64,000 bases of DNA from Trypanosoma brucei. Its lineage: Eukaryota. The translations under genes were made by a program, and so were the position numbers. The notes under the pieces were generated by a model. It did no database searches. It worked only from the letters and a program-made list of their open reading frames with translations, and was not told where the DNA came from. Positions 46,223 to 64,000 of this stretch are shown piece by piece. Position 1 is the stretch's first letter. The number at the start of each line of letters is the position of its first letter. The DNA lies in NCBI GenBank assembly GCA_000002445.1, contig CP000071.1, positions 320,001 through 384,000 on the forward strand. Direction: 5' to 3'.

Positions 46223-47459
46223 TAATGCCCCTGTTCGTTGTCAACCTCTCTTTTTTTTTTTTCGCCCTCAGGTCTTTCTTGGTTTGTACAAATGTTCACC
46301 TTTCCATCCCCAATGAGCAAAAAAAAAAAAGGAAAAATAAAAGGAAAAAGAGTAAACAAAAGAAAAGGTAAGAGGTGTTAACTACAACACCGATAGGAAG
46401 CGTCACAACGGAGCAACGCTCAGAGAGAGAGAGAGAATCGAGCAATGAAGACAGCGGGTAACAACAGAAAAACGCAGAACAGTCCCTTATCATGAACTGA
46501 AAAAAGCAGAATGGAAAGAAATGAACGAATAGGGGAAACAAACGGAATATAGAACATAACCCATACCTTCCTCCCTTCCACTTTTGGAAACAACTATCGC
46601 ACCACACTTCAACCCCGTGTCCCCCTTCTCTAACATTTCTTATTGATACTACCGCTCCTTTTTCCTGTAATTTACTCCCTTCCAATCTAATTTAACTTTA
46701 GTACCCTTCTCTCCACTCCTCATGTCTTATCACTCATCCACCAACGCCAGGAATTTGGTAGGGAGGGGGGATCAAAAAAAAAAAAATGTTATTTCCCCCT
46801 TTTTTAAAGAAAATTAAAAAAAAGGGGGCGAAAACCTTCCCCACATACGTCCACGTCCCATCCCGGTTCCCAATTCTAAAACCTTCCACTCCAAAGCAAA
46901 TATATGCACTGTTTACCCGAGAGAAAATGCTCGGGACGGTGAAGATGTTTTACCTCCTTTGTTGTGTCGCGTGAGTGACAGGATGGCGGGAGTACATGCC
47001 CGTCTTTGCATGAGTGGAGTATGAACCGCTAACACTTAAACACACACACACACACAATTCGGTAATCACCAAAATATAAAAAATAAAAAAACAAGAAAGG
47101 ATCTAGAAAGAGAAGTGTATAAAAAAAAAAAAGCATGCCCGTAAATGCACCCCCGTGACGAAGGACCATCCCCACAGACACATCTGTCACTGCCGGACAA
47201 TCCGCGCCGTCACGCCACCGAGTTGAAAGCAACGATAAACAGTTAAAATGGAAGAAGGGCGGGGTGTAAAAGAAGGCACACAAAATGTACGCTCCCTCCA
47301 ATCTAAGTTTGAAAAAAGGGGGGGAAGGAGGGAGGGAGCGGTGAAAAAAAATAATAATGTGTGGTCATCTCATCTCTAAGTGCCGTGTCCCCAAGAAAAT
47401 GTAGCATGTAGACAAAACAGTAGCTGCCGTTCGATAATCTGAAATGCCGGCGAGAAGGT

Positions 47460-48488: not shown

Positions 48489-49464
48489 AATATAGAAGTA
48501 AAACACGTAGGTCACCAACGTAACGAAGGAACAGTGCCCGGCCCTGCTCCTGTGGCACCCCGTATATTTAAGCGAAAAAAATCTTGCTCTTCCACCTGCT
48601 TACTTTGTCAGTGGAAACGCTACAACCTAATTTAAGAAGAAGGAGTTGTTGTTGGGACGAATAAAAGTAGCAGGTTTAGAGAAAATTGGTAGCATACGCA
48701 CTGTCTCTAACCATATCTCTCTTAATGGTCTGAAGCGACCGTGTATACACCGCCGAACCGCTGACCCCTACACACGTGCGCCAATGTTGTCCTCACATGC
48801 TTTCATGCATGAAGGTCGCGGCGATGGTGAGGGAAGGAAAAGAAAGGAAAGGATTGAGTTAAAAGATGTGTCCCGCAACCGTCTAAATGCCACAAGAAAA
48901 CCCCACGGCGGAAAATGTAGGAAAAGGCAACCCTTCCTTTCAGTGCGGGTCAACGGCACATGAGAAGTCGACAAAAGTGATACAAAGAATGGTGTTTCCC
49001 AAGAATGCAAAGGCACAACAAAAGTATTTTTAATACTAGCAAGGAACAAGGGTAACAGTAAAGGAACATGTCGCAGGTTCACAGGGTCCATGATCACTAA
49101 AGTCCACAATCAACAACAGAACGAGAGTTGTAGGAAAACAAAAATTGGTCAAAAGTTTTACTCACATTATCATTATAGCATGCAGAGTCCCCAAAGGGTA
49201 AAGGAAACAGAAAAACTATATGAACCAATACTCACCCCGCACCTACCCACTGCATAACACTTACATCAAATACCAAAGTGCTCACACATTTACGTAAGTG
49301 CAAATTCCCTTCTTTCATGCCTCCGTGCAACCGAAAAAAAAAACCTCCATCACACGCAGGTTTCGTTTGCAACCACGTATATGAATTATCAACCCCCCCC
49401 TCCCCTCCGCATCCCTACACTCCCTCCTCACTCTCTTCTCTTCTCTTCTCAAACATTTCCTACA

Positions 49465-52400
49465 TCATCTAATACGTTCCTCGCACCAAGCGCTCATACG
49501 TCTCCATCCTCGCTCCCGAGGATGACTATGCCTCGACCACCAAAACTGGCTAACGCCCCGCATTGTTACATGTTCTCTCACCCTCTGCCATTGTGCCCTC
49601 GCCACCAGGCGCTGTCCAAAACGCATATAACTTCCCACATTATTCGAAGCAGAAGAATGATGCTCAACATCCTCAGCTAACTTCACGGCAATGCGACGCG
49701 CCCCCGGTTCCATGTCCTCCAGTTCAGCACCCTTTTCAAATGAGGGTTCCGACACCGGAATCAGGCGGGAAACAGAAACAAATACAAGTGTCAGCGATGC
49801 AATCAGAATCGATGCAATCCACTGTTCTGCTCTCAACGGTACACACGACATAAACTCTTTTAAGACCTCCACGGCCAAAACCTGAAAACCCACACAACAA
49901 ACCACGATAACCAAAAATGACTTTGAACGAATAAAAAGCCCTTCAAATACATTAACTTCATCATACACTTTGCGGGCATTAAACATATTAAATATGGTAA
50001 AGAAAATAAAAACGTTAAAAACAACAGTTGGAAGTTCCTTCCCCTTCGCCTTTAACCACTTACCACCATATTGGGTTAATAAAAGAACGCTAACAACCTG
50101 AACTACAGTAGCAGTCAGTATTGTCAACCACATTCGACGTGAGACAAGGGGAGCTCGGGGGGAAGACGGACCACGATTTAAGCAATCCTCTGTCGGTTGC
50201 TCCGTTGCGAGAGCGAGGGCCGCAAGTGTGTCCATAAGAAGATTTACCCATAACAGCTGTACAGTCGTTAACGGTGACATATCATGAGCAGACAAAAAAG
50301 AACCAACAAAAACAACAACAATAGAAGCAATATTAATAGAAAGTTGTAACTGCAGGAACTTGCGGATGTTGTCATTCACAGTCCGTCCCCAAACAACGGC
50401 ACGCTGGACAGAACGGAAGTTGTCGTCTAAAAGCACAATATCACCGGACTTCACCGCTATATCCGTGCCACTGCGCATCACAAAACCCACATTTGCAAGA
50501 CGCAGCGCAGGGGCGTCATTTGTCCCATCACCAGTCACAGCAACGACCTCACCACGGAGCATCAGCATCAGTACGAGCAGTTGCTTGTCCAGAGGCTGCG
50601 AACGCCCCATCACCATCATCCGGTCAAGAACAGGCCAGAACTTCTCCATGTTCGCCTCGTCACCATAAGTGTCATACACAAGGTTGCGGAAGTCCTTCCC
50701 AGTGAGCGCAAGATCACCACGCAGTCGATTGTAAATTCCACATTGCCGAGAAATTGCAACGGCTGTGTCGAGATTGTCACCCGTACACATCCTCACTGTC
50801 ACTCCCGCACGCTGGCACATTCGCACAGCATCCACAACCTCTGGACGAAGCGGGTCCTGGATGCCTAATAGTGCAAGCCACACAAATGGTCCCTCGGGTT
50901 CCTCCTCGGGAACCGCACCGTCCGTACCGATACGCCCGTATGCCACGCCGATTGTGCGATTTGCGTCCCCCGCTATTGACCGTATCTGCGCAGTGATCAT
51001 CTCAGTTACCTCCTCCGTCAGCGGCTCCTCACGACCCTCTGACGACAAGTATCGGTTGCACATGCCAAGCACACGATCAGAGCCCCCTTTCACGTACTGC
51101 ATCACAACTCCATCCGCACCTGCAACCACAGCAGTCATAAACTTCCGTTCGCTCGTAAAAGGAAAGATGGCAAAGCCACGGCTGCGGTTTGTCATGCGTA
51201 ACTTCTGGTGTGGAAGCTCCTTGTCATTACAACTACCCGGTACCGATATCAACACGCGATCCACAAAATCCAATATCGCTTGGTCAGTTTTGTTGCCCTT
51301 GTCGGTACGCCACGTCCATCGAGACAGTAAGTCAGACTCAGCTCCCACATTACCTGGTAAAAGCTCCTTCTCACTCGAACTATTCAGTGCAAGACCAAGC
51401 ATTAGTAACGACTGTGCATCACTAGACACACCCTCCAGATTAACCGTGGACGAGGGATCTCCGGGATTCGAGACACGGAACCGCCGCATCCCAATGTAAC
51501 CTTGTACCACAGTCATACGATTCTGAGTCAGCGTCCCAGTTTTATCACTACAAATCTGTGTTGCATTGCCCATTGTCTCACAAGCACACAAACGCCTCAC
51601 CTGATTATTGTCCTTCTGCATCTGGCTCTGTGAGTACGCAAGAGCAATCGTCACCGCCAACGGCAAGCCCTCTGGCACTGCGACGACAACAATCGTCACA
51701 CAAAGTAAAAAAATATCAAGAAACTTTTTTGCGCGTAACTCTTCTTTACCACGAAGAACGAGAAGGATGTAAAACAAAGAAAGCAGAGACATAAGTATCA
51801 CTGCCGCTCCAATTCCTATCCGACCAATAAACCCAGCTAATTCGTCCAATCGCTCCTGCAAGGGAGTCGCCCTCGGTTCACCGTCGAGACGAGATTCCAT
51901 TAGCAGCTTTCCACCAAAAGAAGACTCACCGACGGCGCACGCAAGAATGTAAGCATCCTCAGCCGTACTCACAACAGTCCCAGAAAGTAAGATTGGATGT
52001 TCGGCGCCTTTCTTTTTCAGATCATTCTCGCCAGTCACACTCGACTCATCAACAACAACACTCAAACCACGTACGTATAAACCATCTACAGGGATAACAA
52101 GACCCGGTGACAAGGACACAAGATCACCCACAACAATTTCTGTCACATCCACCGTAACCTTGTGACCATCACGAATGACGGAGATTGGCTGAGCAGAGTT
52201 CTCCTCCACAAGAGCACGGAATTTCAACTCCTTGCGGTAATCCTGAATAGACGATGCTGAGGTTACTGCAATCACGGCCATAAGAATGGCGGTGCCCTCT
52301 ATCCAACCTGTCTTATAGTCAACCTTCTCGTGTCCGGGTTCCGGCACAGTTAACCCGAGGATAAGCGACACACATGCGGCAAGGGTCAAAAGTATGATCA

Positions 52401-52773
52401 TGCGGTCACTCCATGCAGCTTTAAAAATCTTCCAGAATGTCAGCGGAGCCTCCTCAGGAAGCTCATTCCTCCCATACACAGCACGCCGATTCTCTACAGA
52501 AAAAGAGTCGATGCCATCTGTTATACTCGTGCCAAGTCGTTCGGCAATACCCTCAACGCCGCCAAGTTCCTCGTATAGGGGCTTAGCGTCACCGACGCAA
52601 CTGAACAAGGTGTGAAGCTCTCCCTTAATCCCTATGCCGATACGATCTTCGAGCTCCACCTCCACTGCAACGGACCCATCACTTCTGGTAAGGCCAGTGG
52701 ATAAAAACGCTTGCCTCTCTCGACCGCGGCCGGCAAGTGTACCGTAGTTCGAAGTGTCTTTTGGGGAAATCAT
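49465..52773 (-). CDS. PMCA/vacuolar-type Ca2+-transporting P-type ATPase, array copy A (1102 aa), with a C-terminal ~270 aa divergent from copies B and C.
   Basis: P-type ATPase motifs CSDKTGTLTQN (phosphorylation site), MCTGDN, GDGTNDAPAL and PEGLPLAVTIALAYS. The track start at 52776 is GTG; the ATG is at 52773..52771 (verified). The length of 1102 aa matches my recollection of one of the two T. brucei PMC proteins (TbPMC2), which is unconfirmed. Confidence 0.85.
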   Translation of the reverse strand: MISPKDTSNYGTLAGRGRERQAFLSTGLTRSDGSVAVEVELEDRIGIGIKGELHTLFSCVGDAKPLYEELGGVEGIAERLGTSITDGIDSFSVENRRAVYGRNELPEEAPLTFWKIFKAAWSDRMIILLTLAACVSLILGLTVPEPGHEKVDYKTGWIEGTAILMAVIAVTSASSIQDYRKELKFRALVEENSAQPISVIRDGHKVTVDVTEIVVGDLVSLSPGLVIPVDGLYVRGLSVVVDESSVTGENDLKKKGAEHPILLSGTVVSTAEDAYILACAVGESSFGGKLLMESRLDGEPRATPLQERLDELAGFIGRIGIGAAVILMSLLSLFYILLVLRGKEELRAKKFLDIFLLCVTIVVVAVPEGLPLAVTIALAYSQSQMQKDNNQVRRLCACETMGNATQICSDKTGTLTQNRMTVVQGYIGMRRFRVSNPGDPSSTVNLEGVSSDAQSLLMLGLALNSSSEKELLPGNVGAESDLLSRWTWRTDKGNKTDQAILDFVDRVLISVPGSCNDKELPHQKLRMTNRSRGFAIFPFTSERKFMTAVVAGADGVVMQYVKGGSDRVLGMCNRYLSSEGREEPLTEEVTEMITAQIRSIAGDANRTIGVAYGRIGTDGAVPEEEPEGPFVWLALLGIQDPLRPEVVDAVRMCQRAGVTVRMCTGDNLDTAVAISRQCGIYNRLRGDLALTGKDFRNLVYDTYGDEANMEKFWPVLDRMMVMGRSQPLDKQLLVLMLMLRGEVVAVTGDGTNDAPALRLANVGFVMRSGTDIAVKSGDIVLLDDNFRSVQRAVVWGRTVNDNIRKFLQLQLSINIASIVVVFVGSFLSAHDMSPLTTVQLLWVNLLMDTLAALALATEQPTEDCLNRGPSSPRAPLVSRRMWLTILTATVVQVVSVLLLTQYGGKWLKAKGKELPTVVFNVFIFFTIFNMFNARKVYDEVNVFEGLFIRSKSFLVIVVCCVGFQVLAVEVLKEFMSCVPLRAEQWIASILIASLTLVFVSVSRLIPVSEPSFEKGAELEDMEPGARRIAVKLAEDVEHHSSASNNVGSYMRFGQRLVARAQWQRVREHVTMRGVSQFWWSRHSHPRERGWRRMSAWCEERIR

Positions 52774-53425
52774 CACTCCCTCAAAACTTTCCCTCCCACT
52801 CGGTCACACTTCGCGCAACCAAACGTTACTTTATCCTGTACTCGCTTTGGGCCACTCAACAACAATCCAGAAATATCACCTACCTGTATCGCAAATGACA
52901 CCTAACGTTATTCTCATTATTTTTCAAAATTGCATTTGATATAATTGTTACAAGTCAATGAAGGGAAAGAAAGAGACAGGGAAAGGGAGTGACAGAAGTG
53001 TTCCTAAGTGGTTAATTGAACATGACTTTTGAGTCACGTAAGGAAAGAAAGGTGAACACAAAAGCATCCACTGGTCTTCCCCCTCCCTTTCTACACCTAA
53101 TATTCCCTAATCGGCCTCTTCCGTTAATATTACCTGCGCGTCACCGAAAGTACAGAAGGGTGAAGTGGGGCCCCTTGCACAGACGTATGCGAACTGCCGG
53201 TTCACAGGCACACCATGAAACCATTAACCTTATCCTGTTTCTTACTTCACACAACAATTTCTCTTACGCTTACTTTCAGTCCGGCTGCTTCATCCTCATG
53301 AAGAAGCAGTTATGCACTTCCGCATTACTTGGTAATATTTGGTTGTTGTTATTGCTCCCCTTCGCTTTCATTTATCACCAATGACCACAGGCTGTTCACT
53401 GTAGAGTTGCTTCTCAGGTACATAC

Positions 53426-54421
53426 CTACAGGTCACGTAGGAGTGATGAAATGAGAAGGGTACCATCGCACAGAGCCTCTAGATGCTGAGCCTGTTCCCT
53501 AAGTTGCACCAGTGCCAACATTGTGTCCACTCCACGTGCGGGGGGTACATTGTTTTCATCTCGCTGGTTTCTGGAAGTTTCCCGACTGAGTTTGCCCTCC
53601 AAATCACTTAAGTTTCGCTGTACAGACTCAAGGAGGGCAACCTTGTAATCAGCCATAGAATCAGAGTGATGTACTGTACTGTTGCTTGGCAACGGTGCGA
53701 TATCAATGCCGTTTAGGCAAAAAAGTTGATAAGCATCCACCTCCACCTCCACCTTCACCTCGCGAAGCACACCTTGCTTGGGGACCGAACACGCACGCAG
53801 AAGCCGTGCTTCTTCCTGCATCCCACTCTTCTTGTCAGTCTTTTTGGTTTTTTTGTTCTTTCTGGAAAAGTCGAGAAATGCATCCGTCGGCACGAACGCA
53901 CGAAGGTACAACTTACCCATTAGGCCGGTACGGAAGGGGTCGTAGACAAGAAGCACACTTGGGTGACCGTCAATTGCCAAGTTCGCCAACCGATCAGCTG
54001 TCACAACCGAGTAGGGATCATTCACACAAGCACTGGAAACAATGAAGTAACCTACGCTATAACTGTCTAGGCACTCCTTACGCAGCATCTCCTTTACTTT
54101 CTCGTACATCTTCTGCTGCTGTTTACTCTCGGCCGTGTCATCCCGCTCATCCTCTGCGTCACCAGAAGCTCCCAGGCTGGGAAGAACACTCGTGATGAGA
54201 ATCGTATCCCCTTGTTGAACTCCACAAAGACGTCCGCCGACGGCACTGTGGCACGTGGCATCCTGCGAGAAGCTGCCGAGATGTGTGAGGGCGGGAAATG
54301 ATATGCGAACTTTCTTCGCTGGCGGCAGTTCCACGTGAGAATCACTATCCTTCGCGAATATCGATTCGCCAGTGGGGGCGTCGTCGGAAACGACCTGAAC
54401 CTGCGGAAAACCGTGAAACAT
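53426..54421 (-). CDS. MPN (JAB/Mov34) domain protein with a C-terminal coiled-coil tail, likely translation initiation factor eIF3 subunit h; array copy 1.
   Basis: MPN-like core (GDTILITSVLPS...GYFIVSS...HPSVLLVYDP) and a C-terminal helical region. ATG at 54421 verified. The eIF3h assignment is from fold pattern and memory of a duplicated eIF3h at this locus, so it is an inference. Confidence 0.6.
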   Translation of the reverse strand: MFHGFPQVQVVSDDAPTGESIFAKDSDSHVELPPAKKVRISFPALTHLGSFSQDATCHSAVGGRLCGVQQGDTILITSVLPSLGASGDAEDERDDTAESKQQQKMYEKVKEMLRKECLDSYSVGYFIVSSACVNDPYSVVTADRLANLAIDGHPSVLLVYDPFRTGLMGKLYLRAFVPTDAFLDFSRKNKKTKKTDKKSGMQEEARLLRACSVPKQGVLREVKVEVEVDAYQLFCLNGIDIAPLPSNSTVHHSDSMADYKVALLESVQRNLSDLEGKLSRETSRNQRDENNVPPARGVDTMLALVQLREQAQHLEALCDGTLLISSLLRDL

Positions 54422-55581
54422 TTTCGAGCAAGCGGCTCAAACGTGAAGCGATGGACCCTATCGGTGCTTATTTTAATACCTTAAAACCTGGAAGCCAATG
54501 AAGCAGTTTGTGTCCACATGGGGCGACGGCAGATAATAGCAACATTGAAATTGACAAGAAGAATAGGATGAAAGGAAATTTGTAACAATGAGCAAGACAG
54601 AAGAGAAGCTGCGGCATGCACAACTACGACGGTGGACCCATACACCAGCACACGAATCTCTGATAAATCTTGATCAATTTATAATACTCCGTAAACATTT
54701 TCCGCTCCCGAAGCTTCCCGGAGGTTTCGATAATGGCATACCTTAACGTGTCCTGTGCCCTTTCCTTCACCCCTCCGGAGGGTAAGAAAATAAAGCATCA
54801 AACACCAACCATCAAACCTAAAAAGAATAGTAAAATGATGACAAGAGGGGGGATAGTGTTAGGACATTTAAGATTTACACAAGAAGATGAAAACGCTGGT
54901 TGCTGTGAACAGAAAAAAAACAGAAAACGTATAAAATGGGACGAGTGAGCGGAAGCTAAAACAGTCGCTACGCAGCCCCTTCAATTTAAAAAGAGGAGTA
55001 CGCAGAAGAATATGTAAGTGCGAAGCCCATTAGGAGCGTATGATACATAACATATTATGTATGCAAAAAGTAAAATAGCGAAAAATAACTTCTTTTCTCC
55101 TAAAAAAGGGAAAAAGAAAGCCAATGAAAAGAGAGAAGAGAAAAATGAACGGTGTCGTACACATTTTTTGTATCATTTTCTTTTTGATATTCTCTGTTGC
55201 CCCTCCTCGATGTCACGCGGAGCAAAGGGCCCACCATTCTTATGCATCCTCAGCCATCCACTCCAGTCCCTCACATCAACTGTCATACCACCGCAAAACA
55301 GGGACGAAACGCTTCAAATAAAAGATCTGAGAAATAACGAAATGGGGGGGGTGGAAATGATGCGGTAGGGCAGCAACGGTGGTGTTACCAAAAAATGACC
55401 GTGTGGAAGGAATCCACGCCAAGCTTCCGCACCGCAATTTATTATTAGAAAGAACGCAAAATAACAATAAAAGAGCTTACGAACGGGACTGGAGAACTCT
55501 TCATCCGATCCAAACAAATCATTTAGGAGGAAAAAGTTATTAAAAGATGAGGGGTAAGGTCAGGGTATAAAAGACAAACAT

Positions 55582-58500
55582 TCATACCATCCTTAATGTG
55601 TCATAAAGTTGTCGGGTGGAGCCCCGTTTCATATCGCGATCCGTCCATGCGCGGCGGAATGCATTAACAACACGAGGTTTCTTCACATGCTCTGCCTGAA
55701 GTCTACGCCACCGCGACTGCGCACGCAACCGACCCGCAAGAAGCGAAGAGGCGTCACTTGTCCCGTCCGTCTCCCGCTGCCTCTGCTCCGCAGCCACCGA
55801 AACATCTTTGATGAGGCGAGAGGCACTACCGTCGACATTTCTACTATCTGGTATCAGTGCAAACACAGGTTCCCTGATGCTCACCACCCGGCTCAAAATA
55901 CCCACAACAAGTGAAATGGCAGCAATACCGATACTTACACCCCATTGCTTGATCGAAAGGGGACGGACACCCATAAAGTCGTTAAAGGTGCAGATGGCCA
56001 ACACTTGAAACGCAATGCACGAACCGACGACAACAATAAAAAATACCGACCGACCCATCCCTTCAAACACATTAAGTTCTCGGTACAATTTGCGACAATT
56101 TAACATGTGGAATATAGTGCCGAAAACAAAAACGTTGAATAGAAATGTTCGGTGCAAATGCTTGCCATTCTCATCCTCCCCAAAATACTTTCCACCAAAC
56201 GTGAGCACAGAAAAGAAAGCAGTTAGCTGAACTGTGGCAACGGAAAAAATTGTGAACCACATTCGACGTGAGACAAGGGGAGCTCGGGGGGAAGACGGAC
56301 CACGATTTAAGCAATCCTCTGTCGGTTGCTCCGTTGCGAGAGCAGGGGCCGCAAGTGTGTCCATAAGAAGATTTACCCATAACAGCTGTACAGTCGTTAA
56401 CGGTGAAGACTTACCCTCCCTCACGAGGGTACCTACGACGGTTAATGAAAAACACACCAAATTCACCGTGAACTGTAACTGCAGGAACTTGCGGATGTTG
56501 TCATTCACAGTCCGCCCCCAAACAACGGCACGCTGGACGGAACGGAAGTTGTCGTCTAAAAGCACAATATCACCGGACTTCACCGCTATATCCGTGCCAC
56601 TGCGCATCACAAAACCCACATTTGCAAGACGCAGCGCAGGGGCGTCATTTGTCCCATCACCAGTCACAGCAACGACCTCACCACGGAGCATCAGCATCAG
56701 TACGAGCAGTTGCTTGTCCAGAGGCTGCGAACGCCCCATCACCATCATCCGGTCAAGAACAGGCCAGAACTTCTCCATGTTCGCCTCGTCACCATAAGTG
56801 TCATACACAAGGTTGCGGAAGTCCTTCCCAGTGAGCGCAAGATCACCACGCAGTCGATTGTAAATTCCACATTGCCGAGAAATTGCAACGGCTGTGTCGA
56901 GATTGTCACCCGTACACATCCTCACTGTCACTCCCGCACGCTGGCACATTCGCACAGCATCCACAACCTCTGGACGAAGCGGGTCCTGGATGCCTAATAG
57001 TGCAAGCCACACAAATGGTCCCTCGGGTTCCTCCTCGGGAACCGCACCGTCCGTACCGATACGCCCGTATGCCACGCCGATTGTGCGATTTGCGTCCCCC
57101 GCTATTGACCGTATCTGCTCAGTGATCATCTCAGTTACCTCCTCCGTCAGCGGCTCCTCACGACCCTCTGACGACAAGTATCGGTTGCACATGCCAAGCA
57201 CACGATCAGAGCCCCCTTTCACGTACTGCATCACAACTCCATCCGCACCTGCAACCACAGCAGTCATAAACTTCCGTTCGCTCGTAAAAGGAAAGATGGC
57301 AAAGCCACGGCTGCAGTTTGTCATGCGTAACTTCTGGTGTGGAAGCTCCTTGTCATTACAACTACCCGGTACCGATATCAACACGCGATCCACAAAATCC
57401 AATATCGCTTGGTCAGTTTTGTTGCCCTTGTCGGTACGCCACGTCCATCGAGACAGTAAGTCAGACTCAGCTCCCACATTACCTGGTAAAAGCTCCTTCT
57501 CACTCGAACTATTCAGTGCAAGACCAAGCATTAGTAACGACTGTGCATCACTAGACACACCCTCCAGATTAACCGTGGACGAGGGATCTCCGGGATTCGA
57601 GACACGGAACCGCCGCATCCCAATGTAACCTTGTACCACAGTCATACGATTCTGAGTCAGCGTCCCAGTTTTATCACTGCAAATCTGTGTTGCATTGCCC
57701 ATTGTCTCACAAGCACACAAACGCCTCACCTGATTATTGTCCTTCTGCATCTGGCTCTGTGAGTACGCAAGAGCAATCGTCACCACCAATGGCAAGCCCT
57801 CTGGCACTGCAATAACAACAATCGTCACACAAAGTAGGAGAAAGTTCAGGAACTTCTTCGGGTAAAATTGTTGTTTGTTTGTAGCAATTCGCTCAATTTC
57901 GATGATACAAAGTACTATGAAAAAAAGAACGGCGGATATAATTGCAACTCGAGCGATGAAGCTAACTAAGTTTTGCGACCGCTCCTGCAAGGGAGTCGCC
58001 CTCGGTTCACCGTCGAGACGAGATTCCATTAGCAGCTTTCCACCAAAAGAAGACTCACCGACGGCGCACGCAAGAATGTAAGCATCCTCAGCCGTACTCA
58101 CAACAGTCCCAGAAAGTAAGATTGGATGTTCGGCGCCTTTCTTTTTCAGATCATTCTCGCCAGTCACACTCGACTCATCAACAACAACACTCAAACCACG
58201 TACGTATAAACCATCTACAGGGATAACAAGACCCGGTGACAAGGACACAAGATCACCCACAACAATTTCTGTCACATCCACCGTAACCTTGTGACCATCA
58301 CGAATGACGGAGATTGGCTGAGCAGAGTTCTCCTCCACAAGAGCACGGAATTTCAACTCCTTGCGGTAATCCTGAATAGACGATGCTGAGGTTACTGCAA
58401 TCACGGCCATAAGAATGGCGGTGCCCTCTATCCAACCTGTCTTATAGTCAACCTTCTCGTGTCCGGGTTCCGGCACAGTTAACCCGAGGATAAGCGACAC

Positions 58501-58902
58501 ACATGCGGCAAGGGTCAAAAGTATGATCATGCGGTCACTCCATGCAGTTTTAAAAATCTTCCAGAATGTCAGCGGAGCCTCCTCAGGAAGCTCATTCCTC
58601 CCATACACAGCACGCCGATTCTCTACAGAAAAAGAGTCGATGCCATCTGTTATACTCGTGCCAAGTCGTTCGGCAATACCCTCAACGCCGCCAAGTTCCT
58701 CGTATAGGGGCTTAGCGTCACCGACGCAACTGAACAAGGTGTGAAGCTCTCCCTTAATCCCTATGCCGATACGATCTTCGAGCTCCACCTCCACTGCAAC
58801 GGACCCATCACTTCTGGTAAGGCCAGTGGATAAAAACGCTTGCTTCTCTCGACCGCGGCCGGCAAGTGTACCGTAGTTCGAAGTGTCTTTTGGGGAAATC
58901 AT
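55582..58902 (-). CDS. PMCA/vacuolar-type Ca2+-transporting P-type ATPase, array copy B (1106 aa).
   Basis: Same P-type motifs as copy A. ATG at 58902..58900 (verified; the track start at 58905 is GTG). Nearly identical to copy A over about two thirds of its length, but with a different TM3/TM4 patch and C-terminal region. The length of 1106 aa matches my recollection of TbPMC1, which is unconfirmed. Confidence 0.85.
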   Translation of the reverse strand: MISPKDTSNYGTLAGRGREKQAFLSTGLTRSDGSVAVEVELEDRIGIGIKGELHTLFSCVGDAKPLYEELGGVEGIAERLGTSITDGIDSFSVENRRAVYGRNELPEEAPLTFWKIFKTAWSDRMIILLTLAACVSLILGLTVPEPGHEKVDYKTGWIEGTAILMAVIAVTSASSIQDYRKELKFRALVEENSAQPISVIRDGHKVTVDVTEIVVGDLVSLSPGLVIPVDGLYVRGLSVVVDESSVTGENDLKKKGAEHPILLSGTVVSTAEDAYILACAVGESSFGGKLLMESRLDGEPRATPLQERSQNLVSFIARVAIISAVLFFIVLCIIEIERIATNKQQFYPKKFLNFLLLCVTIVVIAVPEGLPLVVTIALAYSQSQMQKDNNQVRRLCACETMGNATQICSDKTGTLTQNRMTVVQGYIGMRRFRVSNPGDPSSTVNLEGVSSDAQSLLMLGLALNSSSEKELLPGNVGAESDLLSRWTWRTDKGNKTDQAILDFVDRVLISVPGSCNDKELPHQKLRMTNCSRGFAIFPFTSERKFMTAVVAGADGVVMQYVKGGSDRVLGMCNRYLSSEGREEPLTEEVTEMITEQIRSIAGDANRTIGVAYGRIGTDGAVPEEEPEGPFVWLALLGIQDPLRPEVVDAVRMCQRAGVTVRMCTGDNLDTAVAISRQCGIYNRLRGDLALTGKDFRNLVYDTYGDEANMEKFWPVLDRMMVMGRSQPLDKQLLVLMLMLRGEVVAVTGDGTNDAPALRLANVGFVMRSGTDIAVKSGDIVLLDDNFRSVQRAVVWGRTVNDNIRKFLQLQFTVNLVCFSLTVVGTLVREGKSSPLTTVQLLWVNLLMDTLAAPALATEQPTEDCLNRGPSSPRAPLVSRRMWFTIFSVATVQLTAFFSVLTFGGKYFGEDENGKHLHRTFLFNVFVFGTIFHMLNCRKLYRELNVFEGMGRSVFFIVVVGSCIAFQVLAICTFNDFMGVRPLSIKQWGVSIGIAAISLVVGILSRVVSIREPVFALIPDSRNVDGSASRLIKDVSVAAEQRQRETDGTSDASSLLAGRLRAQSRWRRLQAEHVKKPRVVNAFRRAWTDRDMKRGSTRQLYDTLRMV

Positions 58903-59554
58903 CACTCCCTCAAAACTTTCCCTCCCACTCGGTCACACTTCGCGCAACCAAACGTTACTTTATCCTGTACTCGCTTTGGGCCACTCAACAACAATCCAGA
59001 AATATCACCTACCTGTATCGCAAATGACACCTAACGTTATTCTCATTATTTTTCAAAACTGCATTTGATATAATTGTTACAAGTCAATGAAGGGAAAGAA
59101 AGAGACAGGGAAAGGGAGTGACAGAAGTGTTCCTAAGTGGTTAATTGAACATGACTTTTGAGTCACGTAAGGAAAGAAAGGTGAACACAAAAGCATCCAC
59201 TGGTCTTCCCCCTCCCTTTCTACACCTAATATTCCCTAATCGGCCTCTTCCGTTAATATTACCTGCGCGTCACCGAAAGTACAGAAGGGTGAAGTGGGGC
59301 CCCTTGCACAGACGTATGCGAACTGCCGGTTCACAGGCACACCATGAAACCATTAACCTTATCCTGTTTCTTACTTCACACAACAATTTCTCTTACGCTT
59401 ACTTTCAGTCCGGCTGCTTCATCCTCATGAAGAAGCAGTTATGCACTTCCGCATTACTTGGTAATATTTGGTTGTTGTTATTGCTCCCCTTCGCTTTCAT
59501 TTATCACCAATGACCACAGGCTGTTCACTGTAGAGTTGCTTCTCAGGTACATAC

Positions 59555-60550
59555 CTACAGGTCACGTAGGAGTGATGAAATGAGAAGGGTACCATCGCAC
59601 AGAGCCTCTAGATGCTGAGCCTGTTCCCTAAGTTGCACCAGTGCCAACATTGTGTCCACTCCACGTGCGGGGGGTACATTGTTTTCATCTCGCTGGTTTC
59701 TGGAAGTTTCCCGACTGAGTTTGCCCTCCAAATCACTTAAGTTTCGCTGTACAGACTCAAGGAGGGCAACCTTGTAATCAGCCATAGAATCAGAGTGATG
59801 TACTGTACTGTTGCTTGGCAACGGTGCGATATCAATGCCGTTTAGGCAAAAAAGTTGATAAGCATCCACCTCCACCTCCACCTTCACCTCGCGAAGCACA
59901 CCTTGCTTGGGGACCGAACACGCACGCAGAAGCCGTGCTTCTTCCTGCATCCCACTCTTCTTGTCAGTCTTTTTGGTTTTTTTGTTCTTTCTGGAAAAGT
60001 CGAGAAATGCATCCGTCGGCACGAACGCACGAAGGTACAACTTACCCATTAGGCCGGTACGGAAGGGGTCGTAGACAAGAAGCACACTTGGGTGACCGTC
60101 AATTGCCAAGTTCGCCAACCGATCAGCTGTCACAACCGAGTAGGGATCATTCACACAAGCACTGGAAACAATGAAGTAACCTACGCTATAACTGTCTAGG
60201 CACTCCTTACGCAGCATCTCCTTTACTTTCTCGTACATCTTCTGCTGCTGTTTACTCTCGGCCGTGTCATCCCGCTCATCCTCTGCGTCACCAGAAGCTC
60301 CCAGGCTGGGAAGAACACTCGTGATGAGAATCGTATCCCCTTGTTGAACTCCACAAAGACGTCCGCCGACGGCACTGTGGCACGTGGCATCCTGCGAGAA
60401 GCTGCCGAGATGTGTGAGGGCGGGAAATGATATGCGAACTTTCTTCGCTGGCGGCAGTTCCACGTGAGAATCACTATCCTTCGCGAATATCGATTCGCCA
60501 GTGGGGGCGTCGTCGGAAACGACCTGAACCTGCGGAAAACCGTGAAACAT
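59555..60550 (-). CDS. MPN-domain protein (eIF3h-like), array copy 2, with protein identical to 53426..54421.
   Basis: Identical 331-aa translation. ATG at 60550 verified. The longer overlapping ORF 60223..60729(-) is in another frame and is an artefact. Confidence 0.6.
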   Translation of the reverse strand: MFHGFPQVQVVSDDAPTGESIFAKDSDSHVELPPAKKVRISFPALTHLGSFSQDATCHSAVGGRLCGVQQGDTILITSVLPSLGASGDAEDERDDTAESKQQQKMYEKVKEMLRKECLDSYSVGYFIVSSACVNDPYSVVTADRLANLAIDGHPSVLLVYDPFRTGLMGKLYLRAFVPTDAFLDFSRKNKKTKKTDKKSGMQEEARLLRACSVPKQGVLREVKVEVEVDAYQLFCLNGIDIAPLPSNSTVHHSDSMADYKVALLESVQRNLSDLEGKLSRETSRNQRDENNVPPARGVDTMLALVQLREQAQHLEALCDGTLLISSLLRDL

Positions 60551-61715
60551 TTTCGAGCAAGCGGCTCAAACGTGAAGCGATGGACCCTATCGGTGCTTCT
60601 CTCAACATACGCACCTAAAACCCGGAAGCCAATGAAGCAGTTTGTGTCCACATGGGGCGACGGCAGATAATAGCAACATTGAAATTGACAAGAAGAATAG
60701 GATGAAAGGAAATTTGTAACAATGAGCAAGACAGAAGAGAAGCTGCGGCATGCACAACTACGACGGTGGACCCATACACCAGCACACGAATCTCTGATAA
60801 ATCTTGATCAATTTATCATACTCCGTAAACATTTTCCGCTCCCGAAGCTTCCCGGAGGTTTCGATAATGGCATACCTTAACGTGTCCTGTGCCCTTTCCT
60901 TCACCCCTCCGGAGGGTAAGAAAATAAAGCATCAAACACCAACCATCAAACCTAAAAAGAATAGTAAAATGATGACAAGAGGGGGGATAGTGTTAGGACA
61001 TTTAAGATTTACACAAGAAGATGAAAACGCTGGTTGCTGTGAACAGAAAAAAAACAGAAAACGTATAAAATGGGACGAGTGAGCGGAAGCTAAAACAGTC
61101 GCTACGCAGCCCCTTCAATTTAAAAAGAGGAGTACGCAGAAGAATATGTAAGTGCGAAGCCCATTAGGAGCGTATGATACATAACATATTATGTATGCAA
61201 AAAGTAAAATAGCGAAAAATAACTTCTTTTCTCCTAAAAAAGGGAAAAAGAAAGCCAATGAAAAGAGAGAAGAGAAAAATGAACGGTGTCGTACACATTT
61301 TTTGTATCATTTTCTTTTTGATATTCTCTGTTGCCCCTCCTCGATGTCACGCGGAGCAAAGGGCCCACCATTCTTATGCATCCTCAGCCATCCACTCCAG
61401 TCCCTCACATCAACTGTCATACCACCGCAAAACAGGGACGAAACGCTTCAAATAAAAGATCTGAGAAATAACGAAATGGGGGGGGTGGAAATGATGCGGT
61501 AGGGCAGCAACGGTGGTGTTACCAAAAAATGACCGTGTGGAAGGAATCCACGCCAAGCTTCCGCACCGCAATTTATTATTAGAAAGAACGCAAAATAACA
61601 ATAAAAGAGCTTACGAACGGGACTGGAGAACTCTTCATCCGATCCAAACAAATCATTTAGGAGGAAAAAGTTATTAAAAGATGAGGGGTAAGGTCAGGGT
61701 ATAAAAGACAAACAT

Positions 61716-64000
61716 TCATACCATCCTTAATGTGTCATAAAGTTGTCGGGTGGAGCCCCGTTTCATATCGCGATCCGTCCATGCGCGGCGGAATGCATTA
61801 ACAACACGAGGTTTCTTCACATGCTCTGCCTGAAGTCTACGCCACCGCGACTGCGCACGCAACCGACCCGCAAGAAGCGAAGAGGCGTCACTTGTCCCGT
61901 CCGTCTCCCGCTGCCTCTGCTCCGCAGCCACCGAAACATCTTTGATGAGGCGAGAGGCACTACCGTCGACATTTCTACTATCTGGTATCAGTGCAAACAC
62001 AGGTTCCCTGATGCTCACCACCCGGCTCAAAATACCCACAACAAGTGAAATGGCAGCAATACCGATACTTACACCCCATTGCTTGATCGAAAGGGGACGG
62101 ACACCCATAAAGTCGTTAAAGGTGCAGATGGCCAACACTTGAAACGCAATGCACGAACCGACGACAACAATAAAAAATACCGACCGACCCATCCCTTCAA
62201 ACACATTAAGTTCTCGGTACAATTTGCGACAATTTAACATGTGGAATATAGTGCCGAAAACAAAAACGTTGAATAGAAATGTTCGGTGCAAATGCTTGCC
62301 ATTCTCATCCTCCCCAAAATACTTTCCACCAAACGTGAGCACAGAAAAGAAAGCAGTTAGCTGAACTGTGGCAACGGAAAAAATTGTGAACCACATTCGA
62401 CGTGAGACAAGGGGAGCTCGGGGGGAAGACGGACCACGATTTAAGCAATCCTCTGTCGGTTGCTCCGTTGCGAGAGCGAGCGCCGCAAGTGTGTCCATAA
62501 GAAGATTTACCCATAACAGCTGTACAGTCGTTAACGGTGAAGACTTACCCTCCCTCACGAGGGTACCTACAACAGTTACTAGAAAAGAAACAACGTTCAC
62601 GGTTAATTGCAGCTGCAGGAACTTGCGGATGTTGTCATTCACAGTCCGCCCCCAAACAACGGCACGCTGGACAGAACGGAAGTTGTCGTCTAAAAGCACA
62701 ATATCACCGGACTTCACCGCTATATCCGTGCCACTGCGCATCACAAAACCCACATTTGCAAGACGCAGCGCAGGGGCGTCATTTGTCCCATCACCAGTCA
62801 CAGCAACGACCTCACCACGGAGCATCAGCATCAGTACGAGCAGTTGCTTGTCCAGAGGCTGCGAACGCCCCATCACCATCATCCGGTCAAGAACAGGCCA
62901 GAACTTCTCCATGTTCGCCTCGTCACCATAAGTGTCATACACAAGGTTGCGGAAGTCCTTCCCAGTGAGCGCAAGATCACCACGCAGTCGATTGTAAATT
63001 CCACATTGCCGAGAAATTGCAACGGCTGTGTCGAGATTGTCACCCGTACACATCCTCACTGTCACTCCCGCACGCTGGCACATTCGCACAGCATCCACAA
63101 CCTCTGGACGAAGCGGGTCCTGGATGCCTAATAGTGCAAGCCACACAAATGGTCCCTCGGGTTCCTCCTCGGGAACCGCACCGTCCGTACCGATACGCCC
63201 GTATGCCACGCCGATTGTGCGATTTGCGTCCCCCGCTATTGACCGTATCTGCTCAGTGATCATCTCAGTTACCTCCTCCGTCAGCGGCTCCTCACGACCC
63301 TCTGACGACAAGTATCGGTTGCACATGCCAAGCACACGATCAGAGCCCCCTTTCACGTACTGCATCACAACTCCATCCGCACCTGCAACCACAGCAGTCA
63401 TAAACTTCCGTTCGCTCGTAAAAGGAAAGATGGCAAAGCCACGGCTGCGGTTTGTCATGCGTAACTTCTGGTGTGGAAGCTCCTTGTCATTACAACTACC
63501 CGGTACCGATATCAACACGCGATCCACAAAATCCAATATCGCTTGGTCAGTTTTGTTGCCCTTGTCGGTACGCCACGTCCATCGAGACAGTAAGTCAGAC
63601 TCAGCTCCCACATTACCTGGTAAAAGCTCCTTCTCACTCGAACTATTCAGTGCAAGACCAAGCATTAGTAACGACTGTGCATCACTAGACACACCCTCCA
63701 GATTAACCGTGGACGAGGGATCTCCGGGATTCGAGACACGGAACCGCCGCATCCCAATGTAACCTTGTACCACAGTCATACGATTCTGAGTCAGCGTCCC
63801 AGTTTTATCACTGCAAATCTGTGTTGCATTGCCCATTGTCTCACAAGCACACAAACGCCTCACCTGATTATTGTCCTTCTGCATCTGGTTCTGTGAGTAC
63901 GCAAGAGCAATCGTCACCGCCAACGGCAAGCCCTCTGGCACTGCGACGACAACAATCGTCACACAAAGTAGGAGAAAGTTCAGGAACTTCTTCGGGTAAA
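61716..64000 (-). CDS. PMCA/vacuolar-type Ca2+-ATPase, array copy C, 5'-truncated by the window edge (the N-terminal about 350 codons lie beyond 64000).
   Basis: The reading frame is open to the window end. The track's M at 63962 is an internal GTG, not a start. The C-terminal region matches copy B, and an internal segment around 63900..63960 matches copy A. Confidence 0.8.
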   Translation of the reverse strand, partial: YPKKFLNFLLLCVTIVVVAVPEGLPLAVTIALAYSQNQMQKDNNQVRRLCACETMGNATQICSDKTGTLTQNRMTVVQGYIGMRRFRVSNPGDPSSTVNLEGVSSDAQSLLMLGLALNSSSEKELLPGNVGAESDLLSRWTWRTDKGNKTDQAILDFVDRVLISVPGSCNDKELPHQKLRMTNRSRGFAIFPFTSERKFMTAVVAGADGVVMQYVKGGSDRVLGMCNRYLSSEGREEPLTEEVTEMITEQIRSIAGDANRTIGVAYGRIGTDGAVPEEEPEGPFVWLALLGIQDPLRPEVVDAVRMCQRAGVTVRMCTGDNLDTAVAISRQCGIYNRLRGDLALTGKDFRNLVYDTYGDEANMEKFWPVLDRMMVMGRSQPLDKQLLVLMLMLRGEVVAVTGDGTNDAPALRLANVGFVMRSGTDIAVKSGDIVLLDDNFRSVQRAVVWGRTVNDNIRKFLQLQLTVNVVSFLVTVVGTLVREGKSSPLTTVQLLWVNLLMDTLAALALATEQPTEDCLNRGPSSPRAPLVSRRMWFTIFSVATVQLTAFFSVLTFGGKYFGEDENGKHLHRTFLFNVFVFGTIFHMLNCRKLYRELNVFEGMGRSVFFIVVVGSCIAFQVLAICTFNDFMGVRPLSIKQWGVSIGIAAISLVVGILSRVVSIREPVFALIPDSRNVDGSASRLIKDVSVAAEQRQRETDGTSDASSLLAGRLRAQSRWRRLQAEHVKKPRVVNAFRRAWTDRDMKRGSTRQLYDTLRMV

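What the first reader, a model, noticed from the sequence alone, without database searches (positions are those of the whole stretch)
49465..64000. Tandem ~6.13 kb array alternating PMCA-type Ca2+-ATPase and MPN/eIF3h-like genes (about 2.4 units)
Three Ca2+-ATPase genes (49465..52773, 55582..58902, 61716..>64000) alternate with two identical MPN-domain genes (53426..54421, 59555..60550), all head-to-tail on the minus strand. Units are almost base-identical, including the spacers, which points to recent duplication or ongoing concerted evolution. A calcium pump and a putative translation-factor subunit are amplified together. The array continues past the window edge, so copy number is unknown here.
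Basis: partly seen in the sequence, partly recalled or inferred. Interest (0 to 1): 0.55.

Follow-up and report, generated by a model that had tools for sequence, protein, structure and literature searches.

The report
Known T. brucei calcium-pump/eIF3h gene array
This is the already annotated and published chromosome 8 locus of Trypanosoma brucei, where three calcium-pump genes (Tb927.8.1160, TbPMC1, TbPMC2) alternate with two identical copies of the translation factor subunit eIF3h; it is real but ordinary.

Summary
A head-to-tail repeat of 6129/6134 bp runs from window 49939 to the window end, and all its genes are on the minus strand. Exact-sequence look-ups identify the locus as Trypanosoma brucei brucei TREU927 chromosome 8. 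The gene order is ATPase XP_846953 (1102 aa, Tb927.8.1160), a 331-aa protein, TbPMC1 (1106 aa), the same 331-aa protein again, then TbPMC2 (1080 aa; residues 321-1080 lie in the window).

The pumps pass the PMCA-type model TIGR01517. The 331-aa protein is the published trypanosome eIF3h (Tb927.8.1170/1190). It is orthologous to chain H of the T. cruzi 43S complex (PDB 7ASE) and has an MPN fold without the JAMM catalytic motif.

The array does not run on. TbPMC2 has a unique N-terminus about 0.85 kb beyond the window, so the reference holds three pumps and two eIF3h genes.

The units are not uniformly identical. Copy 1 is a distinct paralogue whose C-terminus groups with the single T. cruzi and T. 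theileri pumps. The TbPMC1/2 C-terminus groups with a decayed pump relic upstream of eIF3h in T. theileri.

My reading is an old pump-eIF3h-pump arrangement, partly homogenised by gene conversion. One unequal crossover then created the hybrid TbPMC1 and the second eIF3h. The locus is already known; interest is low.

The parts
49465..52773 (-). PMCA-type Ca2+-ATPase, downstream ('D') copy, 1102 aa. Identical to XP_846953.1/AAZ12887.1 'vacuolar-type Ca2+-ATPase, putative' of T. b. brucei TREU927. Assigned to Tb927.8.1160 from the order of accession numbers and from the literature.
   Evidence: Exact-sequence look-up; TIGR01517 1047.7 bits; Pfam P-type domains
49939..49939 (.). Downstream boundary of the tandem repeat, inside the coding sequence of copy 1 (about aa 945). 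Sequence below this point is unique.
   Evidence: Self-BLAST at word size 11; sliding identity
49465..50343 (-). C-terminal region of copy 1 (aa 811-1102), diverged from copies 2 and 3. For aa 901-end it is 37% identical to TbPMC1 but 45-46% identical to the T. cruzi and T. theileri pumps.
51730..51849 (-). Diverged patch aa 309-348 of copy 1. It is 25% identical to TbPMC1 and 52.5% identical to the T. cruzi and T. theileri pumps. 100%-identity tracts flank it on both sides.
52774..53425 (-). Spacer between eIF3h #1 and ATPase copy 1 (652 nt), with polypyrimidine tracts at 52960-53052. It is 651/652 identical to 58903-59554.
53426..54421 (-). eIF3 subunit h, copy 1 (331 aa, MPN fold without the JAMM motif). 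Identical to AAZ12888.1 (Tb927.8.1170).
54422..55581 (-). Spacer between ATPase copy 2 and eIF3h #1 (1160 nt), with polypyrimidine tracts at 55102-55145. It is 99.1% identical to 60551-61715.
55582..58902 (-). TbPMC1 (1106 aa), identical to XP_846955.1/AAZ12889.1 'vacuolar-type Ca2+-ATPase 1' (Tb927.8.1180). It is a hybrid: the 5' flank and aa 1-62 match copy 1, while aa 309-348, aa 811-end and the 3' flank match TbPMC2.
58903..59554 (-). Spacer between eIF3h #2 and TbPMC1 (652 nt).
59555..60550 (-). eIF3 subunit h, copy 2. Its DNA is 100% identical to copy 1. Identical to AAZ12890.1 (Tb927.8.1190).
60551..61715 (-). Spacer between TbPMC2 and eIF3h #2 (1165 nt).
61716..64000 (-). 3' part of TbPMC2. 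The 760 aa in the window are exactly residues 321-1080 of XP_846957.1/AAZ12891.1 'vacuolar-type Ca2+-ATPase 2' (Tb927.8.1200). The remaining 960 nt of the gene lie beyond the window.

Best explanation
The region is the Tb927.8.1160-Tb927.8.1200 locus of Trypanosoma brucei brucei TREU927 chromosome 8. It lies inside a long minus-strand polycistronic transcription unit. In the direction of transcription the genes run TbPMC2, eIF3h, TbPMC1, eIF3h, then Tb927.8.1160.

How it works (inferred from established trypanosome biology). The genes have no promoters of their own. Each mRNA is cut out of the polycistron by trans-splicing and polyadenylation at the polypyrimidine tracts in the spacers. Copy number and the 3' UTR therefore set expression. 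The array delivers three pump isoforms with almost the same catalytic core but different ends:
- TbPMC2 has a unique N-terminus and is at the plasma membrane (literature).
- TbPMC1 has the other N-terminus and is in acidocalcisomes (literature).
- Tb927.8.1160 has the TbPMC1 N-terminus, a different C-terminal membrane and tail region, and its own 3' UTR.
The array also delivers a double dose of a non-catalytic MPN subunit of initiation factor eIF3.

How it arose (inferred from my comparisons). An old arrangement of upstream pump (U), eIF3h, downstream pump (D) predates the split of T. brucei from T. theileri and T. cruzi. Gene conversion keeps the pump cores 99-100% identical within T. brucei, while the C-terminal parts have stayed apart. 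One unequal crossover between U and D, somewhere in aa 63-308, created the hybrid TbPMC1 (D 5' end, U 3' end) and duplicated eIF3h as a passenger. Conversion is still moving the variable patches between copies in different strains.
For: Identity. The exact protein sequences are deposited as consecutive TREU927 accessions AAZ12887-AAZ12891 on a 2,481,190-bp record. The copy 3 fragment is an exact substring of TbPMC2.

Literature.
- eIF3h is Tb927.8.1170/1190, 331 aa, 'two neighboring genes', and LmjF.07.0640 in L. major (PMC4320536).
- Tb927.8.1180 is TbPMC1, acidocalcisomal (PMC4263762).
- A 6215-bp repeat unit with 3 copies in T. b. brucei, 'Vacuolar-type Ca2+-ATPase' (PMC2854126).

Families. 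TIGR01517 scores are 992-1048 bits and all P-type motifs are present. For eIF3h: 7ASE chain H at E=1.6e-186; fold matches to eIF3h and to signalosome and proteasome-lid MPN chains; no JAMM motif.

Origin.
- T. cruzi (3 assemblies) has eIF3h followed by one pump, and the downstream genes are syntenic with the window.
- T. theileri has an internally deleted pump relic upstream of eIF3h plus an intact pump downstream.
- For aa 901-end, copy 1 is closest to the intact T. theileri and T. cruzi pumps (46.5% and 45.2%, against 37.4% to TbPMC1). TbPMC1/2 is closest to the T. theileri relic (46.8%, against 36.5-36.9%). Three shared indels agree with this grouping.
- The core regions aa 63-308 and 349-810 are 98.5-99.6% identical among the T. 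brucei copies but only 72-76% identical to other species.
- TbPMC1 has exactly the D-5'/U-3' composition that a single unequal crossover predicts.
- Patches differ in their assignment between strains: the T. equiperdum D copy carries the U-type patch at aa 314-355, and the Q8I919 TbPMC2 clone carries TbPMC1-type residues throughout.
- Polypyrimidine tracts are present in every spacer.
Against: The locus identity has nothing against it.

The origin model has four weaknesses:
- The U/D grouping rests on one relic sequence, about 200 aligned residues and percent identities. No bootstrapped tree was built.
- The N-terminal 62 aa are too diverged between species to assign.
- The Leishmania arrangement is taken from the literature and from gene numbering; I did not examine it here.
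- Several conversion events could mimic a single crossover.

The trans-splicing and polyadenylation sites are consensus-level guesses without RNA data. [quoted passage not shown]
Confidence: 0.9

Rival explanations
1. Simple recent amplification. A single pump+eIF3h unit was duplicated twice in the T. brucei lineage, and the differences between copies arose afterwards by fast divergence of the ends.
For: Units 2 and 3 are 99.3% identical, the eIF3h genes are 100% identical, and the spacers are 99-100% identical. T. cruzi and the T. b. gambiense assembly have one pump at this locus.
Against: The C-terminal region of copy 1 is closer to the T. cruzi and T. theileri pumps than to TbPMC1/2. The TbPMC1/2 C-terminus is closer to the T. 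theileri upstream relic. Shared indels agree with this. 37% identity next to tracts of 100% identity does not fit uniform post-duplication divergence. L. major also has pump-eIF3h-pump.
Confidence: 0.07
2. Assembly artefact. The repeat, or its copy number, is produced by mis-assembly of a repetitive region.
For: Short-read Logan contigs of related samples break inside the pump genes. PMC2854126 notes that the number of units assembled can be arbitrary.
Against: Each of the three pumps is distinguishable by a unique N-terminus, a unique C-terminus or a hybrid structure. TbPMC1 and TbPMC2 were cloned independently (Q8I920, Q8I919). Independent samples give contigs spanning pump 3' end, eIF3h and pump 5' end at 99.8% identity. 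T. equiperdum assemblies carry 1102-aa and 1080-aa copies. At most, extra TbPMC1+eIF3h units could be collapsed.
Confidence: 0.02
3. Selected co-amplification. The second eIF3h gene is kept because T. brucei needs more eIF3h, or because eIF3h and pump expression are functionally coupled.
For: eIF3h lies beside the pump gene in T. cruzi and T. theileri and between two pump genes in L. major (literature). eIF3h knockdown gives a G1 phenotype in a genome-wide RNAi screen.
Against: T. cruzi and T. theileri have one eIF3h gene. An unequal crossover between the flanking pumps duplicates whatever lies between them, so no selection is needed. Conserved gene order is the rule in trypanosomatid polycistrons. 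No known functional link exists.
Confidence: 0.05

Closest known systems
T. brucei chromosome 8 PMCA array TB3-TB4-TB4b (TbPMC2, TbPMC1, Tb927.8.1160) with interspersed eIF3h genes Tb927.8.1170/1190
   Same: It is this locus. The protein sequences are exact matches. [quoted passage not shown]
   Different: Nothing.
Leishmania major LmjF.07.0630 (pump), LmjF.07.0640 (eIF3h), LmjF.07.0650 (pump)
   Same: Two PMCA-type pumps separated by the eIF3h gene (literature).
   Different: Two pumps and one eIF3h instead of three and two. The sequences were not examined here.
Other trypanosomatid tandem gene arrays with sequence mosaics, as surveyed in the T. b. gambiense genome paper (e.g. pteridine transporter; PMC2854126), plus the H+-ATPase tandem pairs (PMC6884021)
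   Same: Head-to-tail copies in one polycistron, near-identical spacers, gene-conversion mosaics, and strain-specific recombinant copies.
   Different: Here the unit holds two unrelated genes, and the array is bounded by breakpoints inside the first and last pump genes.
Human eIF3h, with the MPN subunits CSN5 and Rpn11
   Same: MPN fold. Human eIF3h chains are the best structural matches outside kinetoplastids. Like human eIF3h (my own knowledge), the protein lacks the JAMM metalloprotease motif.
   Different: Only 16-17% identity in the structural alignments. It falls below Pfam's JAB threshold. Trypanosomatid eIF3 lacks subunit m, the usual partner of the f-h dimer (PMC5311491).

Membership tests
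P2B (PMCA-type) Ca2+-transporting P-type ATPase | Scores above the curated cut-off of the PMCA equivalog model TIGR01517, and better than on the SERCA and PMR1 models | tested here: met
   1047.7, 992 and 1027.6 bits against a cut-off of 507. SERCA and PMR1 models score 308-392 bits, below their cut-offs.
P2B (PMCA-type) Ca2+-transporting P-type ATPase | P-type catalytic motifs: DKTGT phosphorylation site, TGE(S) A-domain loop, PEGLP in TM4, and the TGD and GDGxND hinge | tested here: met
   SDKTGTLT, PEGLPL, MCTGD and GDGTND are present in all copies. The A-domain loop reads TGEN rather than TGES in all Trypanosoma sequences examined.
P2B (PMCA-type) Ca2+-transporting P-type ATPase | Ca2+ transport activity | not testable with these tools
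   Literature only. TbPMC1 and TbPMC2 complement yeast mutants lacking the vacuolar Ca2+-ATPase and the Ca2+/H+ antiporter (PMC6884021, citing Luo et al. 2004). Tb927.8.1160 is uncharacterised.
P2B (PMCA-type) Ca2+-transporting P-type ATPase | Autoinhibitory calmodulin-binding domain in a terminal tail | not tested
   PMC6884021 states that no calmodulin-binding domain could be identified in TbPMC2 or Tca1. I ran no prediction.
MPN (JAB1/Mov34/MPN/PAD-1) superfamily | Match to Pfam PF01398 above the gathering score | tested here: not met
   The window protein scores E=0.021, 15.1 bits, against 22.5. Five of the 10 aligned sequences (the window protein and nine orthologues) match at E<=10, best 9.5e-6. 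The T. congolense orthologue has a precomputed PF01398 hit.
MPN (JAB1/Mov34/MPN/PAD-1) superfamily | MPN fold | tested here: met
   A Foldseek search of the AF2 model gives 160 PDB matches at E<=0.001. All of the 50 listed are chains of eIF3-containing initiation complexes, the COP9 signalosome or the proteasome lid (MPN subunits eIF3h, CSN5, Rpn11 by my reading of the chain labels). The model is weak (mean pLDDT 56.6, TM about 0.4), so this shows the fold class and nothing finer.
MPN (JAB1/Mov34/MPN/PAD-1) superfamily | JAMM metalloprotease motif (E...HxH...S..D), which defines the catalytic MPN+ subclass | tested here: not met
   No H-x-H...S-x-x-D in the window protein or in nine orthologues. 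The corresponding stretch reads VGYFIVSSACVNDPYS. It is therefore a non-catalytic MPN- protein, as expected for eIF3h.
eIF3 subunit h | Orthology to a protein seen as subunit h in an eIF3 structure | tested here: met
   The orthologue profile matches PDB 7ASE chain H 'eIF3H' (T. cruzi 43S complex) end to end, E=1.6e-186. The window protein is 51% identical to the T. cruzi orthologue at 100% coverage. The orthologue sits in the syntenic position in T. cruzi.
eIF3 subunit h | Closer to eIF3h than to the other MPN subunits (eIF3f, Rpn8, CSN6, Rpn11, CSN5) | tested here: inconclusive
   Human eIF3h chains rank directly after 7ASE_H and ahead of the signalosome and proteasome-lid chains. The E-values are close and the model is weak. 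The published phylogeny places it with eIF3h (PMC4320536).
eIF3 subunit h | Physical membership of the T. brucei eIF3 complex | not testable with these tools
   Literature. Purified T. brucei eIF3 contains subunits a through l minus j (PMC5311491 abstract).
Trypanosomatid tandem gene array under concerted evolution | Head-to-tail copies on one strand with near-identical spacers | tested here: met
Trypanosomatid tandem gene array under concerted evolution | Within-genome identity far above between-species identity, with mosaic tracts that differ between strains | tested here: met
   The core is 98.5-99.6% identical within T. brucei and 72-76% identical to T. cruzi and T. theileri. Patches are reassigned in T. 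equiperdum and in the Q8I919 clone.

The most novel reading that the evidence does not exclude
TbPMC1, the acidocalcisomal pump, is a young hybrid gene. A single unequal crossover between two ancient paralogues that have flanked eIF3h since before the trypanosome radiation would have made it. If so, the roughly 62-residue N-terminus alone sets plasma-membrane versus acidocalcisome targeting, because TbPMC1 and TbPMC2 otherwise differ at only 20 positions. The uncharacterised Tb927.8.1160 would then also be acidocalcisomal, but with a differently regulated C-terminal tail. I found no paper in the searched library that states this explicitly, but it is a routine inference for this kind of array.
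Probability: 0.5. Interest if true: 0.2.

Novelty: already known. Interest (0 to 1): 0.08.

Why it matters
It matters little beyond correct annotation. The locus is annotated in the T. brucei reference genome, and two of the pumps are functionally characterised. The 331-aa protein is published as eIF3h, and the 6.2-kb, three-copy repeat is tabulated in the T. b. gambiense genome paper.

Three modest points are useful:
- RNAi or CRISPR reagents and short-read mapping cannot separate the three pumps except at their ends.
- The hybrid structure of TbPMC1 points to the N-terminal ~62 residues as the targeting determinant.
- Tb927.8.1160, rather than TbPMC1 or TbPMC2, carries the C-terminus that is orthologous to the single T. 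cruzi pump Tca1.

Tried and rejected
- Pfam on the 331-aa protein gave nothing at E<=0.01 and only a sub-threshold JAB hit at E<=10. Pfam alone would have wrongly appeared to refute MPN membership. NCBIfam has no model for it.
- The AlphaFold2 model built from the 10-sequence alignment is poor (mean pLDDT 56.6). I used it only for fold class.
- Rfam found no RNA family anywhere in the window. TRF found no short tandem repeats in the array.
- Plus-strand and overlapping ORFs inside the units (50765-51499, 53016-53384, 55057-55368, 56234-56797, 60223-60729) have no Pfam match. I treat them as chance ORFs antisense to, or overlapping, the real genes.
- tblastn found no pump relic upstream of eIF3h in three T. 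cruzi assemblies.
- I considered a second large protein search to fetch the Leishmania eIF3h and pump loci. I did not run it because it could not change the verdict, so the Leishmania arrangement rests on the literature.
- The first homology search listed no T. brucei entry from NCBI, which briefly suggested another species. The exact-sequence look-up showed that the TREU927 entries sit in the same 90% cluster under a Logan representative.

Full report

Yes. The repeat finder reports direct repeats with start-to-start spacing of 6129 and 6134 nt. A self-BLAST of the window gives 51851-57866 vs 57980-64000 at 99.3% over 6023 nt. At lower stringency it gives 49939-57866 vs 56059-64000 at 97.0% over 7957 nt.

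- 49465-52773: 1102 aa from the ATG.
- 53426-54421: 331 aa.
- 55582-58902: 1106 aa.
- 59555-60550: 331 aa.
- 61716 to the window edge: frame open to base 64000.

The two 331-aa genes are identical at all 996 nt. The 652-nt spacer differs at one base between units. The 1160/1165-nt spacer is 99.1% identical.

The whole window carries its large ORFs on the minus strand, and GC skew is negative throughout. This is the look of a trypanosomatid polycistronic unit.

**2. What organism and which genes?**

An exact-sequence look-up settles this.
- Copy 1 is XP_846953.1/AAZ12887.1, 'vacuolar-type Ca2+-ATPase, putative'.
- Copy 2 is XP_846955.1/AAZ12889.1, 'vacuolar-type Ca2+-ATPase 1'.
- The 331-aa protein is AAZ12888.1 and AAZ12890.1, 'hypothetical protein, conserved'.

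All come from Trypanosoma brucei brucei TREU927, on a record of 2,481,190 bp, which I take to be chromosome 8 on the strength of the literature below. The 760 residues of copy 3 that lie in the window are exactly residues 321-1080 of XP_846957.1/AAZ12891.1, 'vacuolar-type Ca2+-ATPase 2'. The five accession numbers are consecutive.

The literature gives the same picture.
- PMC6884021 describes three PMCA genes TB3-TB4-TB4b (1080, 1106 and 1102 aa; TbPMC2, TbPMC1 and an uncharacterised copy). [quoted passage not shown]
- PMC4320536 identifies T. brucei eIF3h as Tb927.8.1170/Tb927.8.1190, 331 aa, 'encoded by two neighboring genes', and the L. major protein as LmjF.07.0640.
- PMC6027440 lists LmjF.07.0630 and LmjF.07.0650 as the Leishmania pumps.
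- PMC4263762 equates Tb927.8.1180 with TbPMC1.
- PMC2854126 tabulates a 6215-bp repeat unit, three copies in T. b. brucei, 'Vacuolar-type Ca2+-ATPase', against one assembled copy in T. b. gambiense. The asterisk on that row means the missing variant was present in the reads.

**3. Family tests**

*The pumps.* They score 992-1048 bits on the PMCA equivalog TIGR01517 (cut-off 507) and fall below the cut-offs of the SERCA and PMR1 models. They carry DKTGT, PEGLP, TGD and GDGTND and the expected Pfam P-type domains.

*The 331-aa protein.*
- It has no Pfam hit at E<=0.01 and only a sub-threshold JAB/MPN hit (E=0.021, 15.1 bits against 22.5). Five of the ten aligned sequences match JAB, best E 9.5e-6.
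- Its homologues at E<=0.001 in the word-indexed search are all Trypanosoma proteins or unnamed assembly-derived proteins. [quoted passage not shown]
- A profile of these orthologues matches chain H ('eIF3H') of PDB 7ASE, the T. cruzi 43S pre-initiation complex, end to end at E=1.6e-186 (structure paper PMC7773551).
- An AlphaFold2 model is weak (mean pLDDT 56.6). Its Foldseek matches are nevertheless coherent: 7ASE_H first, then four human eIF3h chains, then COP9 signalosome chain E and proteasome lid chains, which I take to be CSN5 and Rpn11. There are 160 matches at E<=0.001.
- The JAMM motif is absent in all orthologues.

The protein is therefore a non-catalytic MPN protein and the trypanosome eIF3h.

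**4. Anatomy of the array**

The units are not uniform. A 100-nt sliding comparison shows the following.
- Units 2 and 3 are 100% identical, apart from small patches at 56246-56546 and 57746-57866.
- Unit 1 is 99-100% identical to unit 2 from about 50417 to 51617, and from 51917 through the spacers and eIF3h.
- Unit 1 drops to 49-85% at 51717-51917 (aa 309-348) and to 46-95% from 50417 down to 49939.
- Below 49939 unit 1 cannot be aligned.

Copy 1 and copy 2 are therefore 87% identical in DNA and 82% in protein, and their 3' flanks are unrelated (49.6%).

At the other end, the first 36 residues of TbPMC2 are unrelated to the first 62 residues of copies 1 and 2. The repeat thus ends inside the 5' part of TbPMC2, about 0.85 kb beyond the window. 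The array spans about 14.9 kb, or 2.4 units, and contains three pumps and two eIF3h genes in the reference.

TbPMC1 has the 5' flank and N-terminus of copy 1, and the two variable patches, C-terminus and 3' flank of TbPMC2.

**5. How it arose**

I fetched the eIF3h loci of T. theileri and of three T. cruzi assemblies.
- In T. cruzi the order is eIF3h, one pump (1103 aa), a 341-aa gene, a 360-430-aa gene, then a Metallophos phosphatase. The window genes downstream of copy 1 (47460-48518, 45167-46222, 39790-44163) match these by tblastn.
- T. theileri has the same order. It also has an internally deleted pump relic upstream of eIF3h (L006 7426-7635 and 8196-8816).

Region-by-region identities give a reciprocal pattern for aa 901-end.
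- T. brucei copy 1 is closest to the intact T. theileri pump (46.5%) and the T. cruzi pump (45.2%). It is less close to TbPMC1 (37.4%).
- TbPMC1/2 is closest to the T. theileri relic (46.8%). It is less close to the intact pumps (36.5-36.9%).
- Three indels are shared in the same pattern.
- The aa 309-348 patch behaves the same way: 52.5% against 27.5-32.5%.

By contrast, the core (aa 63-308 and 349-810) is 98.5-99.6% identical among the T. brucei copies and 72-76% identical to the other species.

The simplest reading is an old upstream-pump / eIF3h / downstream-pump arrangement. The upstream copy is decayed in T. theileri, and no trace of it was detected in T. cruzi. According to the literature the arrangement is retained in Leishmania. 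In T. brucei, gene conversion homogenises the cores of the pumps.

A single unequal crossover between the upstream and downstream pumps, within aa 63-308, yields exactly what is seen: U, eIF3h, a hybrid with a D 5' end and a U 3' end, eIF3h, then D. This step is inferred; it is not demonstrated.

Conversion is still active. The T. equiperdum 1102-aa copy carries the U-type patch at aa 314-355. The independently cloned TbPMC2 (Q8I919) carries the TbPMC1-type residue at every position where the TREU927 TbPMC1 and TbPMC2 differ after the N-terminus. This agrees with the 'subspecies-specific sequence mosaics' that PMC2854126 describes for T. brucei arrays in general.

**6. How it works**

This part follows from established trypanosome biology and was not tested here. 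Genes in a polycistron lack individual promoters. Each mRNA is released by trans-splicing and coupled polyadenylation, guided by polypyrimidine tracts, and such tracts are present in every spacer. Dosage and UTRs therefore set expression.

The array supplies three pump isoforms that share one catalytic core:
- TbPMC2, plasma membrane.
- TbPMC1, acidocalcisome. Both localisations come from Luo et al. 2004, as summarised in PMC6884021.
- Tb927.8.1160, uncharacterised, with the TbPMC1 N-terminus, the ancestral downstream-type C-terminus and its own 3' UTR.

After residue 62, TbPMC1 and TbPMC2 differ at only 20 positions. The N-terminus is therefore the likely targeting determinant (inference).

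The second eIF3h gene is most simply a passenger of the crossover. Both T. cruzi and T. theileri have a single copy.

**7. Rivals**

- A simple recent triplication is contradicted by the cross-species grouping of the ends.
- An assembly artefact is unlikely. The three pumps are distinguishable, two were cloned independently, and independent short-read assemblies give pump-eIF3h-pump contigs at 99.8% identity. Those contigs end exactly at the variable patches. Collapse of additional TbPMC1+eIF3h units cannot be excluded without long reads.
- Selected co-amplification of eIF3h has no support beyond conserved linkage.

**8. Verdict**

The locus is already annotated and published. The hybrid origin of TbPMC1 and the antiquity of the flanking pair are small additions of my own that remain to be tested. 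Interest is low.

Noticed in passing
window 55582-58902 (TbPMC1), aa 364, 373, 530, 811-820, 853: The TREU927 TbPMC1 copy has private substitutions at conserved positions: PEGLPLVV instead of PEGLPLAV in TM4, and L853P in the TM6 motif NLLMDTLAAL. The independently cloned TbPMC2 (Q8I919) carries the same residues, so they are segregating conversion tracts and not errors.
   Followed up: partly
proteins P0013, P0018, P0019 (GenBank clones Q8I920, Q8I919, Q7Z1N8), aa 770-778 in TbPMC1 numbering: All three older clones read HGYSGEVRC where the genome reads TDIAVKSGD, part of the stretch GTDIAVKSGDIVLLDDNF that is identical in all three genome copies. This looks like a compensated frameshift error in the deposited clones.
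   Followed up: no
window ATPases aa 247 (221 in TbPMC2); L006 and L007 orthologues: The A-domain dephosphorylation loop reads TGEN instead of the usual P2-type TGES in all Trypanosoma copies examined.
   Followed up: no
L006 7426-7635 and 8196-8816 (T. theileri NBCO01000027.1): An internally deleted PMCA relic (an N-terminal piece and an open 206-aa C-terminal piece) lies upstream of eIF3h. Its C-terminus is closest to TbPMC1/2.
   Followed up: yes
L001-L005 (Logan assemblies ERR7929157-ERR7929164) vs window 57980-62418: Short-read contigs carrying eIF3h are 99.8% identical to the window. The longest contigs end exactly at the edges of the variable pump patches (57980/51851 and 62418/56284), where the assembly graph would branch.
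   Followed up: partly
protein P0016 (T. equiperdum, 1102 aa), aa 314-355: The downstream-type pump of T. equiperdum carries the upstream-type (TbPMC1/2) sequence in the aa 309-348 patch. This is a strain-specific conversion tract.
   Followed up: partly
window 39790-48518: The genes downstream of the array are a 352-aa ORF, a 351-aa ORF and a 1457-aa Metallophos/EF-hand phosphatase. They are syntenic with T. cruzi and T. theileri. The two smaller proteins have no Pfam family.
   Followed up: partly
window 30001-32000 and 38001-40000: GC content dips to 0.416 and 0.365, against about 0.50 elsewhere. These are presumably long intergenic stretches; I did not examine them.
   Followed up: no
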